DNA of 64,000 nt from Octopus sinensis (taxonomy: Eukaryota): NCBI RefSeq assembly GCF_006345805.1, contig NC_042999.1:139686001-139750000 (forward strand), in the 5' to 3' direction. Position numbers: made by a program. Shown in pieces: positions 3,674 through 62,400 of the stretch. Positions within the stretch are counted from its first letter, which is position 1; every line of letters begins with the position of its first letter.

Positions 3674-6600
3674 ATCAAAAGATTAATTTTTATGGTGTCA
3701 AGTAAGGTCATTTGCTTTATATAAACTTATACTTTTGACGTTGGTAACTTGTGTTGATGATAATGGTAAACTGTCCCCTCCTGCTGTAAAAAGTCCTACA
3801 GGATAGACACCTTCATTGCTACCAGAAGTCACATTGCTGTCAATTGACTGAGTTGTTATAGTTTGATTGAGTGGTTTTGAAGGGTCTTCTCTTATGGGAC
3901 TGGACTGAGAACACATTTTCTCTACAATACATGATGCAGGGGATAAGTCAGAAACTAGAGAACTTTCAAATACATTAGATTTTAATTTAGCTGTTATTCC
4001 ATGTATTATATCTGTTGCTGCTTCATTTGAAACTGTAGATGTATCAAAATATTTATTCAGGTGACCATATTCGTCATCTTCAGGCCCAACAGGTTCAATT
4101 TTCACACCAGGGGCCATGCAAAAATTTTCAGAAAAGTTATTGTTTGTACTCAGTGATCCAATCTCAGAAGGCTCTTGTTTAATATCAAATGCTTGTGTAG
4201 TGATGGATGGAGTAGACTGAGATGTAACTGAAATGATAGATGATGATGGTAGAGGTGGTGGAACTGATAGTTTGGTCTGTGTGTTGTAATGGTCACCTAA
4301 GACAGTAGATGTTGAAATATGTGGTTGAGATTCTTCATATGGAAGGCGACTATCACACAGTTGTTCAAATTCTTTCATGTCCAAACGTTTTGCAATGATT
4401 TTCAACTGATGTAAAATATCTGGATCAAGATCTAATAATCCATTGTACATGTATTCAGCAAAGGCATTTAAAGCTTGTGTACTTACTTCCTCTGGAAAGT
4501 TAATTTCAAGAAAATTGCGAGAGGGGATATTTGTACTAAATACTGACAATAATTTTGGACACACAGCAGACAGGACAACTTTATGTACCTGAAACAAAGT
4601 AAATGATAAAACATGCTAATAACTTAACTTAAATCAAGGAGTAAGTCTTTATTCCTTGTTTTTCTCCCCAAAATATTCAATTCCAAACAGGAAAACAATT
4701 GTCTCTAATGAAAAATTAGTAAAATTCAAAAGTTATTTTGATTTGTGTATCTTTATTAGCAATTTGAAAAAAATTATATCAATATAGGCGCAGGAGTGGC
4801 TATGGTAAGTAGCTTGCTAACCAACCACATGGTTCCGGTTCAGTCCCACTGCGTGGCATCTTGGGCAGGCGTCTTCTGCTATAGCCCTGGGCAGACCAAT
4901 GCCTTGTGAGTGGATTTGGTAGACAGAAACTGAAAGAAGCCTGTCGTATATATGTATATATATATATGTATGCGTGTGAGTTTGTGTGTCTGTGTTTGTC
5001 CCCCTAGCATTGCTTGACAACCGATGCTGGTGTGTTTACATCCCCGTCACTTAGCGGTTCGGCAAAAGAGACTGATAGAATAAGTACTGGGCTTCCAAAG
5101 AATAAGTCCCGGGGTTGATTTGCTCGACTAAAGGCGGTGCTCCAGCATGGCCACAGTCAAATGACTGAAACAAGTAAGAAGAGTATATGATGTGCAGGTA
5201 ACTTTAAAAATCTTAAGAAACTGTTTGATAACTATTATAAAACACACTGAGAAAGATAAACTTGTTTACTGGACACTTGGAATATATAAACTGTCCTTTT
5301 TTACCAAAAAAAAAATGTTTCAAAAAGTTGGGCCTCCCATAAGCTTGTATTTTCTCCTATATTTTATTATTGTAATCATGTAGAATATTTTCACTAGCAT
5401 GATTCCTGAATTTCGGTTGAGTTGCACTGCTAACTTACTTTTTATATGCAGCGATTGTTTTCTGCTATAGCTAAAATATACTGTAATATATACTAGATTA
5501 CTTTAAATATTACATGCTTTTATCCACTAAAACTCTTTTTCTTGAATATGCACTATGGAAATTGTGGGGGGGGGGCATCTATTGCGACATCAAGTGCAGC
5601 AACTATGTTGGAGGCATTTCTAAATACTAAAGTTTTAAAAAGCAATATACTTACCATCACAGCAGATGAACCATTACTAATACTAGCATCACACAGTTTT
5701 CTATTCCTCCACAGCGAAGCAATGTTAGACATCACACGGCGCTGATAATTAGCAATTACAAATATCTGTTTCCGTGGAGTTTTTTCCACAGGTTTTCTTT
5801 TAGACACTTTTATTTGAGATGTTTTGGCAACACTTGAATGTTGCTGGACTGTCATGTGAGAAGTATCCTGGATAGATTTTGCAGATACCTGAGATGCTGG
5901 AATGATATTTATTTGCCTAAAATGTAAAATTTGTAAATAATATAAATGAAATAATATAAATAATATTTGTAAATAATACAAATATGATGCAAATTTAATT
6001 ACCAAAATTCCAATTTTAATTACCACATACCTATCATCTAATTGCTGATCATTGATCTGCCTTTTCTGGACTTTTGGTGCTGATGGTTGAAGAGGTGATT
6101 CATCTGCAATGTGCACAGTTGCAGAAGAGTTATTCACAATATACATCATTTTATTTTGCAATTTTTCAGTTTTTCCATAATGATCTTCCATTAAATTAGC
6201 TGTCTGCAACTATAAATAAAATTTTTTTTTTACTAAAATGAAAATTATTTGTATAACAGCAATACCCAAAACTTGATTTCAGACACATGAAAAAGTAAGA
6301 CATGAGATTCATAAACCAGGTTAAAACAGCTTATCTATGTAACGATGTGTTTATTGTAACACACACAAAATTAACATAACTTGATATCCATTTTCCATTA
6401 TGGCAGGTTTGAATAGTTCATTTGTCCCACTGTGTCATCTTGCAAAGAGCCTACAAAATGAGAAGAACAGAGAAAAATGACAAATTTTGCTGGTGTGTAT
6501 ATCTTACAGTGTGGAATAGCTGATTTTATTGTGCCACCGGCGCTACTGGGGTTTCCACATGTAGGGAGAACAAAAGTCTCTACCTCCTATATTCAGTTCA

Positions 6601-6980
6601 AATTAACAGTTATCAACTGTCTAAACAGGTAGCTCTGATGCAGGTTGCAGAGTCAACAATCTCAATCATATGCTTCAATTATTTGACATGGTTTCTACAG
6701 TCCAATGCCTGTCTTATCACCAACTCTCTTTCTCTTTATATATACATAAGCACCCATGCCAATGACATGTAAAAGGCACTCATGACAAGTGACATGTAAA
6801 AGGCACCCATGATGGTGACACAAAGGAACCTGTTCCAAAGACACTCTTGAAGTGGTTGGTGTTAGAAAAGGCAAAGCCAAAATCAGACTGGAGCCTGATA
6901 TAGTTCTCCGGCTTACCAGTTCTAGTCAAACCATCTAACTCATGCCAGCATGGATAACAGATGCTAAATGATGATGATGA

Positions 6981-59400: not shown

Positions 59401-62400
59401 CCCACCTGCAGTAAATATGATATTCCTGATTGTTGAGGTAAGTCCATATTATAAATCCTTAACGTAGAAATTTGCGTGGTTCGCAGACAATGATTTGTGT
59501 AGATCTGAGAACAACCAGCCTCTCGAGAAATCTCTTTCATTCGAGTTCCGAGAGTGTTTTTACCAATTGGCATGTTATCATACCATGGAACTTCATCTGG
59601 ATTCACATTCTGCTTACTTCTTTGCCAAAAAGCATCACAGAGTGGATTTAAGAGGTTAATGTATTTTTTGAAAGAAGTCAGCGGGCACCATTTATTACCG
59701 GGTATTTCATACATGCGTACTTCATTAACAGGAGGATCCCCATTGCTGTTCAGCTCAGCTCCAACCCGAAAGGTAACATATTGCAGACCCTGAGGTGATA
59801 ATTCAATACTGAAGTCTCGTTTCGAAATCTCCCGCAGATTATCGCGCCCGCGGCTACACATATGCAACATTAAATCCATGAATACCTTATTTTGCAAACC
59901 TCGTGGTTTGTCCTGATCCAGAGCGGACGATAGCATAATTTTCTGTATATCTTCCTCTGTAATAGGATTCTTACGCTTAATAGCATCCTTGCCCATTGCC
60001 CTCAATTTCATCAAAATTACACTGAACACTTCATTGGCTTCAATGAATTCGTCATCTGTTATAATATCTAAATGCGACATTCTCTTGAAGTGACGCTGTA
60101 AACCGTAACGCAACGTAATCATCGATTTCCGAGCATAGAGTTTACCACTAACTTGGCGCACCTCTGTGTAGAACTTTTGCAGAAATCGGCTTAATTGTTG
60201 AGCAGGCTTTTTTTCTAATAAAGATAAAGTAGTGTGTTGAGTTCTACAATAGTCCTTTAGAATTTTGACAGCACTTTTGATAATATTTTGAGTTCGTAAC
60301 GATTCATCTAAATCGATAAGCTCCACACCGTTCATACGGTTTGGAGAAACACATGCTTTAGGGTCTTGTGCTTCTGGTTGAGAATCGCCTAGGCTGTTGG
60401 ACGCCATGTTGAGTGACAGAATTAAAAAATAATTATATAATGAAATCTATGAGCATTCAGCAATAACTGCTAGCTTTTGACTAAATATAGAACCATACAG
60501 TGCAATAAAATCGGCTGCAGTAACGTGTGTAAAGAATTACGTTAATGATACTATGATGCAAAAGCTGTTTCCACTCTCATATTTCTCCCACCGCCATTTT
60601 CCTGTATTACACTTATTTCCCATGGGGAACAGTAGACTATTGACCGACAGTAGTAAGTCCACGTGAGATGCACTAGCCAATGAGAACATCCGTAGTCATA
60701 GTTCTAGCTATTACACTATTACATGGCAACTAATAGCTAGGTAATAGCAAGAGGAAGATCGAGAATTAAGCTACCGCGAAACAATATATTTCGAGAAGCC
60801 AATTACTGAATAGCAGACTCATCCAATCGAAAAAATCGCAGCAGATGTTACAATGTCTCTAGAAAACAAAAACAAACAATACAAAAGAAAAAAAAAATAA
60901 ATTAAAAAAAAAAGAAGCAATTAACCTGGTAACAATCCAATAGCGGTATAGGGTCAGGGTGCTCCGGAGTGGGGCCGTTCTTACCAATAAAATGCAAGCT
61001 ACATAAATATGTCCATGGTTTGATGTTATTAACAGTGAAGTATAATCGACCGCAAGCTTTCACCCAACGCTGACACTTCGCTAAGTCTTTGTGTGGTTTA
61101 GGGAATGGAATCCACCAGACCCCTTTCATTTGCGGTCGGTTAGGATAGCGGCTATCACTTTTACAGGTACCATAGCTACAATGACGATTGGCCGGCATTT
61201 TGTGTATAAAGTCGTTAAAAATTATTTCGTCCTTCCACAAGATTCATCAGAACTTCAACAGATCCATGCAGCAATGCGAAAAAAAAAAAACCCAGTCATT
61301 TATATTCACTATTAAATACATCAAACATGTTCGAAAAATGCTGGTCACGAGGTTGAATAGAATATTATGCTGTCTAAAGTAAATGTAGCACTAGGATTTA
61401 TTGATTACCGTCATCTTATGATAACAGTAACTTCCCGAAAAATTGAACAACAGCGAGTGTTTTCTAAATCCTATTTAATTTTTAGCACAAAGTTAAATAT
61501 ACAGAGTAAAAGTGAGGGAAAAAAAGCAGGCACTTCGCTTTGATAAACTGCTTAAGTATGGCGGACAATAATCGTAGTCACAAACATAGTTTGTCCTATA
61601 AAATATACAGTAATCTACACATGATAAAACCTGCTGTTAACTCAGACATAGCAGCAGCAGTGGAAGGAGGGAAATAGCAGCAGCAGTGAAAGGAGGGAAA
61701 GAAGTCAGATAAGGAGAATCAACACAGACAAGTTCAACACGTCAGTAATAGCAGTAGCAGTAGTGAGTGTTACCATGGCAACGACCAGGAAAAGAGCTCT
61801 CTTTAACATGTCCTAAATACAGCAGTAGATTCAGGTAGTGGGCAATGCAAGTTAGCTATTTTACTATTTTTTTTTCTGTCTCCATCGTACAATAGCAATC
61901 ACTAGTTCTATTTACAGACGCCTTGTACTCTTCAGACACCACATCAACACAGAACCCTTATTTCTGACCCCATATCAAAACGAATATTTGCGGAAGAGGC
62001 AGCTCTAGTAATCGCCCCGCTTTAAAATATATAGTAAGATAATTTAGAAAATAATGTGAAAGGATGCCAACAATGAGAACAAAAATAGAAAAGAAACTTT
62101 TTGGATCTTGCAACTACAAAGTTACCCCCTTATCGAACATGCTTTATGGGCTCAAGGAATAGTTACTATGACCTTCCTATTATCCAAGATTCATTCTTAG
62201 CACAGTATGATTGTATCGAAGTTAGTAGATCAAGCAAACACACAGGTACCCAAATTTAGACATCGGTAGGCAGCCCTCATGATTAAGCTACAAGATGGTG
62301 AGAAAGAGTAATGAAAACAATAGAAAAGTGATTGGCTTCCTTTCGAATCAATAAGAGGGACTGAAACACTTGCCAGTAAACGAAACATTCTCAATACTGG

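What the first reader, a model, noticed from the sequence alone, without database searches (positions are those of the whole stretch)
3698..61198. Variable-first-exon / constant-BTB gene array: a combinatorial transcription-factor generator
Seen: three tandem minus-strand paralogous cassettes, each with three constant exons (phases 0/2/0) encoding linker, BTB and tail. Each begins at a phase-0 acceptor (56730, 27327, 6209) and has no DNA-binding domain. Upstream sit eight intact ATG-started single exons, each with a DNA-binding module: THAP 61198-60926, DUF3504 60407-59406, C2H2 58448-57996, ZnF-TTF 57713-57354, FLYWCH 43885-43511, CENP-B HTH 30749-30312, AT-hook/STPR 14093-13923 and STPR 8425-8147. 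Each has a phase-0 GT donor downstream of its domain, after which the ORF runs into intron-like sequence and stops. These exons are intact while every transposon around them is decayed. Known: Drosophila mod(mdg4) and lola join a constant N-terminal BTB to variable C-terminal FLYWCH/Zn-finger exons, and clustered protocadherins use variable first exons with constant 3' exons. Inference: this is a reverse-polarity, independently evolved system in which alternative first exons supply sequence specificity and the shared BTB dimerises isoforms combinatorially. I know of no description of it in molluscs. More variable exons may lie beyond 64000.
Basis: partly seen in the sequence, partly recalled or inferred. 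Interest (0 to 1): 0.96.

Follow-up and report, generated by a model that had tools for sequence, protein, structure and literature searches.

The report
BTB genes with swappable DNA-binding first exons
Three neighbouring BTB genes appear to take their start codon from upstream stand-alone exons that each encode a different transposon-type DNA-binding domain, so one locus may make a family of transcription factors, but this rests on sequence logic and no RNA evidence.

Summary
The anatomy is largely real. Three minus-strand paralogous three-exon cassettes (linker / BTB start / BTB rest plus tail) keep identical splice sites and phases (exon lengths mod 3 = 2/1/0) while their introns no longer align; the BTB part has dN/dS 0.14-0.29. 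Constant exon 1 is an internal coding exon that opens at a phase-0 acceptor. In cassettes A and B it has no in-frame ATG, so an upstream coding exon ending in phase 0 is required. All eight claimed ATG-started exons sit at the stated coordinates. Five (DUF3504-like, C2H2-like, TTF-like, CENP-B HTH, AT-hook/basic) end in the best donor of their ORF, always phase 0, against 1 of 82 control ORFs (p=7e-6). The THAP, FLYWCH and second basic-repeat donors are no better than chance. Only THAP, FLYWCH and CENP-B/Tc5 HTH pass Pfam cut-offs. The likeliest reading is alternative first exons created by repeated transposase-domain capture. That principle is known: vertebrate KCTD1 isoform b, host-transposase fusions, and published Octopus THAP/CENPB proteins carrying BTB. 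The array itself was not found in the literature I searched. Splicing, promoters and BTB dimerisation are untested, and no orthologue search was possible. Verdict: new variant of a known kind, interest 0.62.

The parts
60926..61198 (-). Candidate first exon 1 of cassette A: ATG plus a THAP zinc finger (91 codons); weak phase-0 donor CAG|GTTAAT
   Evidence: Pfam THAP E 1.3e-7, 32.7 bits against cut-off 23.9. ATG and donor. Donor PWM 0.2, rank 3 of 20 GTs. GC 0.46 against flanks of 0.31 and 0.35.
59406..60407 (-). Candidate first exon 2 of cassette A: ATG plus a QRICH1/DUF3504-like (Crypton recombinase-derived) region (334 codons); strong phase-0 donor CAG|GTGGGT; ORF closes 12 nt later
   Evidence: Pfam QRICH1 2.3e-5 and DUF3504 6.4e-4, both below cut-off. 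Donor PWM 7.44, rank 1 of 56. No PDB relative at E<=1. AF2 single-sequence model unusable, pLDDT 38.
57996..58448 (-). Candidate first exon 3 of cassette A: ATG plus one C-x4-C-x12-H-x4-H finger (151 codons); strong phase-0 donor CTG|GTAAGT
   Evidence: Pfam gives only zf-C2H2_aberr at 0.024 and GAGA at 0.053. Finger pattern read from the translation. Donor PWM 6.59, rank 1 of 38. No meaningful PDB hit.
57354..57713 (-). Candidate first exon 4 of cassette A, nearest to the constant exons (624 nt upstream): ATG plus a C17orf113/TTF-type zinc-finger-like region (120 codons); consensus phase-0 donor AAG|GTAAGT
   Evidence: Pfam zf-C17orf113 8.1e-4, 19.6 bits, below cut-off 29.5. Donor PWM 7.67, rank 1 of 32, top 0.08% of GTs. 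No meaningful PDB hit.
56495..56730 (-). Cassette A constant exon 1 (linker, 236 nt): phase-0 acceptor, no in-frame ATG, ends in phase 2
   Evidence: Frame closed upstream without an ATG. dN/dS to B and C is 0.31 and 0.41.
56104..56407 (-). Cassette A constant exon 2 (304 nt): low-complexity region plus the N-terminal strand/helix part of the BTB; donor ATG|GTAGGT
   Evidence: dN/dS 0.29-0.48.
54681..55745 (-). Cassette A constant exon 3: rest of the BTB, a variable middle, a conserved C-terminal tail, and stop TGA
   Evidence: Pfam BTB 2.7e-8 from profile position 23. PDB nearest are the IVNS1ABP and SLX4 BTBs. dN/dS: BTB part 0.14-0.29, middle about 0.7.
43511..43885 (-). Candidate first exon of cassette B (distal): ATG plus a FLYWCH zinc finger (125 codons); weak donor AAA|GTAAAC; ORF runs on for 201 nt
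   Evidence: Pfam FLYWCH 4.5e-13, 49.6 bits. Donor PWM -1.4, rank 5 of 23. No Pfam domain in the 4 kb downstream in 3 frames.
30312..30749 (-). Candidate first exon of cassette B (proximal, 2985 nt upstream): ATG plus the complete bipartite CENP-B/Tc5 HTH DNA-binding domain (146 codons); strong phase-0 donor TTG|GTAAGT
   Evidence: Pfam CENP-B_N 6.4e-9 and HTH_Tnp_Tc5 1e-14. PDB 1hlv CENP-B DNA-binding domain at 5.4e-7 over residues 10-140. Donor PWM 4.21, rank 1 of 32. No DDE remnant in 27328-30311.
27128..27327 (-). Cassette B constant exon 1 (200 nt): phase-0 acceptor, no in-frame ATG
26739..27033 (-). Cassette B constant exon 2 (295 nt); donor ATG|GTAAGT
24188..25165 (-). Cassette B constant exon 3 (BTB rest plus tail, stop TGA)
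   Evidence: Pfam BTB 4.4e-7.
13923..14093 (-). Candidate first exon (or internal exon) of cassette C: ATG plus a GRPRK AT-hook-like motif and a basic helical region (57 codons); good phase-0 donor AAG|GTAACG
   Evidence: No Pfam or PDB hit. No 23-residue period. Donor PWM 3.19, rank 1 of 14. An in-frame acceptor-like site at 14201. The antisense frame is also open.
8147..8425 (-). Candidate first exon of cassette C (proximal): ATG plus basic 23-residue repeats (STPR-like, 93 codons); weak donor TTG|GTTTGT
   Evidence: Offset-23 self-similarity of 21 of 70 identities, the best offset by far. Atlas lead of 0.87 to a cluster where 12% of members carry PF21107 STPRs. No Pfam or PDB hit. Donor PWM -2.83.
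6031..6209 (-). Cassette C constant exon 1: the acceptor is at 6209 or, by homology with A, at 6203; an in-frame ATG is present at 6191
5655..5916 (-). Cassette C constant exon 2 (262 nt); donor ATG|GTAAGT
3698..4588 (-). Cassette C constant exon 3 (BTB rest plus tail, stop TGA)
   Evidence: Pfam BTB 2.1e-8.

Best explanation
The window holds three tandemly duplicated genes for nuclear BTB proteins. Each shared part (linker exon, two BTB exons, tail) begins with an internal coding exon. The start codon and the DNA-binding domain come from one of several upstream stand-alone exons, used as alternative first coding exons. Each such exon would have its own transcription start, an ATG, an N-terminal DNA-binding domain of a type found in transposases (THAP, Crypton DUF3504, zinc-finger types, FLYWCH, pogo/CENP-B HTH, AT-hook or basic repeats) and a phase-0 donor. 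That donor would join the first downstream acceptor, the phase-0 acceptor of constant exon 1, because the intervening variable exons have no acceptor. The products would be DBD-linker-BTB-tail proteins that share one oligomerisation/effector module and differ in DNA specificity.

The likely origin is repeated transposase capture. Transposons landed upstream of a BTB gene in the same orientation, a donor after the N-terminal DBD was fixed, and the rest of the element decayed. Since no variable exon type is shared between cassettes, the captures (or differential losses) followed the cassette duplications.

Shown: the exon anatomy, the phases, the constraint on the constant exons, domain identity for 3 exons, and donor strength for 5.
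Inferred: use of the junctions, one promoter per exon, nuclear and DNA-binding function, BTB dimerisation, and the capture history.
For: (1) Constant exon 1 is coding and internal. Its acceptor and frame are conserved in 3 of 3 paralogues, lengths differ by multiples of 3, and dN/dS is 0.31-0.50. There is no in-frame ATG in A or B, and the upstream frame closes without an ATG.
(2) 5 of 8 upstream ATG exons end in the top-scoring donor of their ORF. All 5 are phase 0 (a 1/243 chance if phases were random) and lie 12-111 nt before the ORF closes. Their scores of 3.2-7.7 equal or exceed the 6 constant donors at 3.2-5.7. The control is 1 of 82 other ORFs, Fisher p=7.4e-6.
(3) Only 2 acceptor-like sites, 1 in frame, lie in the 8 stretches scanned, each from the upstream stop to 60 nt past the ATG. 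Background is 5.5 per kb.
(4) In every clear case the domain starts within a few residues of the ATG, which is the normal N-terminal position for THAP, CENP-B and FLYWCH.
(5) All 8 of 8 exons are GC-richer than both 300-nt flanks, as the constant exons mostly are.
(6) No transposase catalytic remnant was found in 3 frames of the 3.0 kb after the CENP-B exon or the 4.1 kb after the FLYWCH exon. In cluster A the gaps between exons are only 283-958 nt. Each variable exon is single-copy in the window.
(7) Of 29 ORF translations sent to Pfam (three further frame-wise calls with stops as X are counted separately), the only hits above curated cut-offs are 3 variable exons, 3 BTB exons and one mariner fragment.
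(8) Literature: most Octopus CENPB and THAP factors are annotated with BTB/POZ (PMC10027918). KCTD1 isoform b shows the same mechanism for one exon (PMC3212892). Transposase DBD capture by alternative splicing is a general route (Cosby et al. preprint 10.1101/2020.05.07.082677, passages).
Against: There is no RNA evidence of any kind. Three of the 8 donors (THAP, FLYWCH, STPR2) are no better than 10-29% of random GTs. For THAP, a stronger donor in phase 1 sits at 60985.

Every variable ORF closes soon after its donor, so each can equally be read as a small single-exon gene. No shared promoter element was found upstream of the 8 ATGs: the best 8-10-mers fall within the range of 60 random control sets, and a TATA-like motif within 110 nt occurs in only 2 of 8.

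The two basic-repeat exons have no family hit, lie in purine-rich sequence that is open on both strands, and are weak as ORFs. Cassette C has its own in-frame ATG in exon 1, so it does not strictly need a coding first exon. A short conventional ATG exon, inside or beyond the window, cannot be excluded.

The donor PWM uses recalled vertebrate-like frequencies, not this organism's own. The organism is unverified, so the Octopus papers are support by analogy only.
Confidence: 0.6

Rival explanations
1. One conventional gene per cassette. Only the nearest strong-donor exon (the TTF-like exon for A, CENP-B HTH for B, the AT-hook exon for C) is the true first exon. The remaining DBD ORFs are independent small single-exon genes or pseudo-exons left by old insertions, so there is no isoform 'generator'.
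For: Each ORF closes 12-201 nt after its putative donor and could end a single-exon gene. Three distal or proximal exons have donors that are indistinguishable from chance. No shared promoter motif was found. The nearest exons have the best donors in clusters A and B.
Against: In cluster A, 3 of the 4 exons (not only the nearest) carry rank-1, phase-0, near-consensus donors scoring 6.6-7.7, each in the top 0.3% of GTs. That is hard to explain for unspliced single-exon genes. The published tally of several Octopus THAP-BTB as well as CENPB-BTB proteins suggests that more than one DBD type is joined to BTB.
Confidence: 0.2
2. The main transcripts of the BTB cassettes start from an unseen ordinary first exon: a short ATG exon not recognisable as an ORF, or one beyond position 64000 for cassette A. 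The DBD exons would be minor, tissue-restricted or unused captures.
For: A short phase-0 ATG exon would escape every ORF-based scan I ran; the minimum was 45-57 codons. Cassette C can initiate inside exon 1. According to the Cosby et al. passages, young host-transposase fusions usually coexist with the parental transcript.
Against: It does not explain why 5 DBD exons keep strong phase-matched donors and intact ORFs next to a frameshifted mariner. It is also compatible with, rather than opposed to, alternative first-exon use.
Confidence: 0.13
3. Ordinary transposon debris. The DBD ORFs are surviving N-terminal stubs of decayed elements that happen to lie upstream of BTB genes, and the GT sites are coincidental.
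For: All the recognisable domains are of transposase types. The window is repeat-rich, with SINE-like families and a decayed mariner.
Against: No catalytic-domain remnant follows the CENP-B or FLYWCH exons. The gaps in cluster A are too short to hold transposase bodies. The set is all on one strand, all phase 0, and shows 5 of 8 against 1 of 82 for strong terminal donors. Each exon is single-copy within the window. The constant exons of A and B need an upstream ATG exon.
Confidence: 0.05
4. Serial splicing. The clustered exons THAP, DUF3504, C2H2 and TTF are joined one after another into a single multi-domain mRNA upstream of the BTB.
For: All four are phase 0 to phase 0 in length, so concatenation would keep the frame.
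Against: 0 of the 4 have an in-frame acceptor-like site between the upstream stop and the domain. In the C2H2 exon the stop lies 2 codons before the ATG. The only site, in the TTF exon at 57762, is out of frame. The acceptor criterion recognised only 6 of the 10 control sites listed, so sensitivity is imperfect.
Confidence: 0.02

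Closest known systems
Vertebrate KCTD1 isoform b (Crypton DUF3504 exon upstream of a BTB gene; Kojima & Jurka 2011, PMC3212892, passages read)
   Same: A transposon-derived domain confined to a single exon was inserted upstream of a BTB gene. [quoted passage not shown] One exon here is itself DUF3504/QRICH1-like.
   Different: KCTD1 has one such exon and a KCTD (tetramerisation-type) BTB. Here there are up to eight exons of different superfamilies over three tandem cassettes. The BTB matches PF00651, with the IVNS1ABP and SLX4 BTBs as the nearest solved relatives. 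This is analogy, not orthology.
Host-transposase fusion genes by 'transposase capture' (Cosby et al., preprint 10.1101/2020.05.07.082677, abstract and passages read)
   Same: Transposase DNA-binding domains sit on exons separate from the host regulatory domain, are fused by (alternative) splicing, and the repertoire expands by duplication.
   Different: The worked example there (KRABINER) places the host domain N-terminal and uses a transposon acceptor. Here the transposase DBD would be N-terminal, supplying the ATG and a donor. Several captures stack on one host gene. 'BTB' occurs 0 times in that text.
Octopus CENPB and THAP transcription factors annotated with BTB/POZ (Mukherjee & Moroz 2023, PMC10027918, abstract, passages and section 5 read)
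   Same: The same predicted protein architecture (THAP or CENP-B HTH together with BTB) in a cephalopod, described as a lineage-specific expansion.
   Different: That paper treats BTB as a transposon component and, in the text I read, gives no gene structure, alternative first exons or tandem cassettes. Its supplementary gene lists could not be opened. Whether this window comes from Octopus is unverified.
Drosophila mod(mdg4), lola, fruitless, broad
   Same: One BTB module is combined with many alternative DNA-binding exons, FLYWCH among them, to give many isoforms from one locus.
   Different: The polarity is opposite: there the BTB is the 5' constant part and the variable exons are 3'. mod(mdg4) uses trans-splicing. 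Their TTK-type BTB was not found in Mollusca (PMC11426971).
Clustered protocadherin / UGT1A-type variable-first-exon loci (recalled; no paper read)
   Same: Tandem variable first exons, each with a donor and no acceptor, are spliced to shared constant exons that begin with an acceptor.
   Different: Those variable exons are paralogues of one another and carry conserved promoter elements. Here the exons are unrelated domains, each single-copy, and no shared upstream motif was detected.

Membership tests
BTB/POZ domain proteins (Pfam PF00651) | Match to the BTB profile above the curated cut-off | tested here: met
   Exon 3 of A, B and C scores 34.4, 30.5 and 34.8 bits against a cut-off of 20.5, over profile positions 23-106/108 of 110. 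PDB relatives are the IVNS1ABP BTB at 1.7e-6 and the SLX4 BTB.
BTB/POZ domain proteins (Pfam PF00651) | Complete domain, including the first ~22 profile positions | tested here: inconclusive
   The missing N-terminal part would be encoded at the end of exon 2, which is conserved in 3 of 3 paralogues. Exon 2 alone gives no BTB hit.
mod(mdg4)/lola-type loci | Constant 5' exons encode the BTB; alternative 3' exons encode the DNA-binding domain | tested here: not met
   Constant exon 3 ends in a stop codon in 3 of 3 cassettes. The DBD exons begin with ATG and lack acceptors. The one strong donor inside A exon 3 (55138) lies where C has a deletion.
mod(mdg4)/lola-type loci | TTK-type BTB | not tested
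   No TTK profile was available. PMC11426971 reports finding none in Mollusca.
Variable-first-exon / constant-exon clusters (protocadherin, UGT1A type) | The constant region begins at an acceptor and cannot initiate translation itself | tested here: met
   Met for A and B: no ATG in exon 1 and the upstream frame closes. Not strictly met for C, which has an in-frame ATG at 6191.
Variable-first-exon / constant-exon clusters (protocadherin, UGT1A type) | Each variable exon has a start codon, a phase-matched donor and no acceptor | tested here: inconclusive
   ATG in 8 of 8. Phase-0 GT in 8 of 8, but a strong donor in only 5 of 8. An in-frame acceptor-like site in 1 of 8.
Variable-first-exon / constant-exon clusters (protocadherin, UGT1A type) | One promoter per variable exon, and observed splice junctions | not testable with these tools
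   No expression data were available. The motif search was negative.
Host-transposase fusion genes | A transposase-derived domain on an exon distinct from the host domain | tested here: met
   THAP, FLYWCH and CENP-B_N/HTH_Tnp_Tc5 are above cut-off, each on its own exon, and the BTB is on exons 2-3. That DUF3504 derives from Crypton is taken from PMC3212892.
Host-transposase fusion genes | A fusion transcript joining both parts | not testable with these tools
   No RNA data. Support is by analogy only, from Octopus annotations.
STPR DNA-binding repeats (Pfam PF21107; FMBP-1) | Tandem 23-residue repeats that match the family profile | tested here: inconclusive
   Exon 8425-8147 shows a 23-residue period, with 21 of 70 identities. 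It has no Pfam hit at E<=0.1 and no PDB hit at E<=10, although FMBP-1 STPR structures are reported (abstract listing of PMC4856987). The Atlas lead is 0.87. Exon 14093-13923 shows no 23-residue period.
C2H2 zinc finger | Profile match above cut-off | tested here: not met
   Only zf-C2H2_aberr at 0.024 and GAGA at 0.053, both below cut-off. One C-x4-C-x12-H-x4-H pattern is visible in the translation.
DUF3504 / QRICH1 (Crypton-derived) | Profile match above cut-off | tested here: not met
   QRICH1 scores 24.9 against 30.8 and DUF3504 scores 20.2 against 29.7. Both are significant by E-value (2.3e-5 and 6.4e-4) but below the gathering scores.

The most novel reading that the evidence does not exclude
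A mollusc (probably cephalopod) gene family works as a reverse-polarity counterpart of lola/mod(mdg4). Promoter choice among stacked first exons, each captured from a different transposon superfamily, selects the DNA-binding domain. The shared BTB of three near-identical tandem paralogues then lets the isoforms homo- and heterodimerise, so a few cassettes yield a combinatorial set of bivalent DNA binders. The locus would also be a live record of serial transposase capture, with up to four unrelated DBDs on a single host gene.
Probability: 0.35. Interest if true: 0.8.

Novelty: new variant of a known kind. Interest (0 to 1): 0.62.

Why it matters
If the junctions are used, the locus shows transposase capture happening repeatedly at a single host gene. 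It captures N-terminal DNA-binding domains, together with their own start codons, as alternative first exons. That route differs from the best-studied vertebrate cases and generalises the single KCTD1b example.

It would also explain mechanistically why published surveys find Octopus THAP and CENP-B factors 'associated with BTB'. It offers a convergent counterpart to the insect BTB isoform loci, and a compact system for studying how new transcription-factor specificities are added to an existing oligomerisation/effector module. The hypothesis can be tested directly with existing long-read transcriptomes.

Tried and rejected
TRIED WITHOUT RESULT
- Shared promoter element: a k-mer search (k=8-10, up to 1 mismatch) over the 300 nt upstream of the 8 ATGs found nothing beyond 60 random control sets.
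- Poly(A) signals: 9, 6 and 4 hexamers lie in the 3 kb after the three stops, against about 6 expected, so they say nothing.
- AlphaFold2 of the DUF3504-like exon without an alignment gave pLDDT 38 and pTM 0.26. I ran no fold search on it.
- PDB sequence searches of the DUF3504, C2H2, TTF and both basic-repeat exons gave nothing meaningful.
- The Atlas search on the tail of exon 3 scored 0.76, which is noise level.
- The ten longest other ORFs have no Pfam domain at E<=0.01.
- The unbiased ORF-plus-donor scan produced one extra candidate, 42973-42809. It is low-complexity/SINE-like sequence and I rejected it.

CONSIDERED AND REJECTED
- The standard mod(mdg4) polarity, with the BTB cassette spliced to downstream FLYWCH or CENP-B exons: those exons start at an ATG without an acceptor, and the cassettes end in stops.
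- Serial concatenation of the cluster-A exons.

LEFT OUT
- Any search, fold or complex prediction of a joined (spliced) protein. All searches were made exon by exon, and dN/dS was computed per exon. For this reason I did not use complex prediction for BTB dimerisation, since the BTB spans exons 2 and 3, and dimerisation stays an inference.

UNCHECKED BECAUSE CLOSED
- The search for homologous proteins, the search of protein representatives, and the metagenome and viral collections. As a result there are no orthologues, no dN/dS for the variable exons, no genomic copy number and no identification of the organism.
- Genome contigs holds prokaryotes only and was not used.
- Supplementary files were not opened. 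The supplementary gene lists and figures of PMC10027918 may name these very genes.

LITERATURE
Searches found no description of an array of alternative DBD first exons on a BTB gene. Subscription journals are not covered.

Full report
WHAT IS THERE

The window is AT-rich (GC 0.365, no N). On the minus strand three paralogous units stand out. Alignment and inspection of the junctions give three exons each: A 56730-56495, 56407-56104, 55745-54684; B 27327-27128, 27033-26739, 25165-24191; C 6209/6203-6031, 5916-5655, 4588-3701.

All nine acceptors and six internal donors sit at homologous positions. Exon lengths are 2/1/0 mod 3 in every cassette, and all length differences between paralogues are multiples of three. 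The introns (87-114 nt and 358-1573 nt) do not align. tblastn of each exon against the window finds exactly three copies and no pseudo-copies.

Pfam places a BTB domain in exon 3 of all three, starting at profile position 23. The first strand/helix part must therefore lie at the conserved end of exon 2. NG86 dN/dS is 0.14-0.29 for the BTB part, about 0.7 for the middle of exon 3, and 0.29-0.50 for exons 1 and 2. These are real genes under constraint.

THE KEY STRUCTURAL POINT

Constant exon 1 opens at a good acceptor and is coding: its frame and indel pattern are conserved. In A and B it contains no in-frame ATG, and the frame upstream of the acceptor closes without one. These two genes therefore need an upstream coding exon that ends in phase 0. 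Cassette C has an in-frame ATG at 6191, so the requirement is weaker there.

THE UPSTREAM EXONS

All eight claimed exons exist as described. Each has an ATG at the stated base, a length divisible by three up to a GT, and an ORF that closes 12-201 nt later.

Domain labels are uneven:
- THAP, FLYWCH and CENP-B_N plus HTH_Tnp_Tc5 exceed the curated cut-offs. The CENP-B exon also matches the solved CENP-B DNA-binding domain over its whole length.
- QRICH1/DUF3504 and zf-C17orf113 are significant by E-value but below cut-off.
- The 'C2H2' exon has only marginal hits, plus one visible C-x4-C-x12-H-x4-H pattern.
- The two 'STPR' exons have no Pfam or PDB hit. One of them (8425-8147) shows a clear 23-residue period and a weak Atlas lead to STPR-bearing clusters. 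The other is a short AT-hook-like basic segment.

SPLICE LOGIC

I scored sites with a donor matrix built from recalled metazoan frequencies. The six constant donors score 3.2-5.7. Five variable-exon donors score 3.2-7.7, are the best GT in their ORF, and are all phase 0. The THAP, FLYWCH and STPR2 donors score 0.2, -1.4 and -2.8, which is within the top 10-29% of all 3753 minus-strand GTs.

As a control, 99 ATG-ORFs of at least 57 codons exist on both strands. Of these, 5 of the 8 claimed exons and 1 of 82 others outside the cassettes have a phase-0 donor scoring >=3.0 in their last 120 nt (p=7.4e-6). The single control hit is SINE-like low-complexity sequence.

Only two acceptor-like sites, one in frame, lie in the eight stretches scanned, each from the upstream stop to 60 nt past the ATG. 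The background rate is 5.5 per kb. All eight exons are GC-richer than both flanks. These features fit first exons, not internal exons or random ORFs.

NOT SIMPLY TRANSPOSON STUBS

I translated the 3.0 kb after the CENP-B exon and the 4.1 kb after the FLYWCH exon in three frames, with X at stops. Neither contains any Pfam domain at E<=0.01. In cluster A the four exons are only 283-958 nt apart. A mariner copy at 38634-39431, by contrast, is frameshifted with stops. The ten longest other ORFs have no domain.

WHAT I COULD NOT SHOW

There is no expression evidence. I found no shared promoter motif and no informative poly(A) pattern. I made no test of BTB dimerisation, because the domain spans two exons and the joined step was left out. 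A single-sequence fold of the DUF3504 exon failed.

COMPARISON WITH THE LITERATURE

- The principle, a transposase DNA-binding domain fused to a host regulatory domain by alternative splicing, is established (Cosby et al. preprint).
- A precise single-exon precedent exists. KCTD1 isoform b arose when a Crypton inserted upstream of a BTB gene and created a transcript variant with an N-terminal DUF3504 and a C-terminal BTB (PMC3212892).
- A 2023 survey states that most Octopus CENPB and THAP factors carry BTB/POZ (PMC10027918). The protein architecture is therefore already annotated in a cephalopod, though it is interpreted differently and no locus structure is given.
- The insect loci mod(mdg4) and lola have the opposite polarity, and their TTK-type BTB was not found in molluscs (PMC11426971).
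- Seven full-text searches found no description of several unrelated DBD first exons stacked on tandem BTB cassettes.

VERDICT

It is a multi-exon, multi-superfamily variant of known transposase capture rather than a new category. Its combinatorial function remains a hypothesis. Confidence in alternative first-exon use is 0.6, and interest is 0.62.

Noticed in passing
window 38634-39431 (-), continuing to about 37900: A mariner-type transposase copy (HTH_48 plus a partial DDE) in the long intergenic or intronic stretch between the FLYWCH and CENP-B exons. The reading frame shifts after 265 codons, and the C-terminal part continues in another frame with stops.
   Followed up: yes
window 47403-47476 (-): An Rfam tRNA hit just above the gathering score (32.8 against 29 bits) that ARAGORN does not call. 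It is probably the tRNA-derived head of a SINE and not a tRNA gene.
   Followed up: partly
window 22261-22571, 34977-35369, 45763-45856, 1317-1409; also 29264-29429, 42645-42810, 46242-46407, 41087-41183, 4839-5087, 28934-29161: Several dispersed repeat families of 85-170 nt at 62-88% identity, SINE-like, sitting in introns and between genes. One of them creates a spurious ATG-ORF with a consensus GTAAGT at 42973-42809.
   Followed up: partly
window 54684-54970 against 3701-3990: The C-terminal ~95 codons of cassettes A and C have dS 0.11, against 0.34 for the BTB part and 0.49 for the middle. DNA identity reaches 49-50 of 50 in places, and similarity continues past the stop. This suggests gene conversion or a more recent exchange at the 3' end.
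   Followed up: partly
window 5553-6209 (-): In cassette C the 114-nt intron 1 is a multiple of three with no stop, so exon 1, intron 1 and exon 2 form one open frame of 218 codons. Intron retention would keep the frame.
   Followed up: no
window 14201 (-): An in-frame acceptor-like site (pyrimidine tract plus the AG of the upstream TAG) lies 108 nt before the ATG of the AT-hook exon. The exon could therefore also act as an internal phase 0 to phase 0 cassette exon.
   Followed up: no
window 8115-8480 (+) and 13867-14130 (+): Long open frames antisense to both basic-repeat exons. The sequence is purine-rich and poor in stops on both strands, which weakens the case that ORF length alone marks these two as exons.
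   Followed up: no
window 55138 (-): A strong donor-like site (CAG|GTATGG, score 5.15, phase 2) inside exon 3 of cassette A. It lies in a segment that is deleted in C and poorly aligned in B. It could allow an alternative short isoform of A only.
   Followed up: no
window 41159-41450 and 43030-43230: Long imperfect microsatellite or short-period tandem arrays (periods of about 8-10 nt, TA/CA-rich) on either side of the FLYWCH exon region.
   Followed up: no
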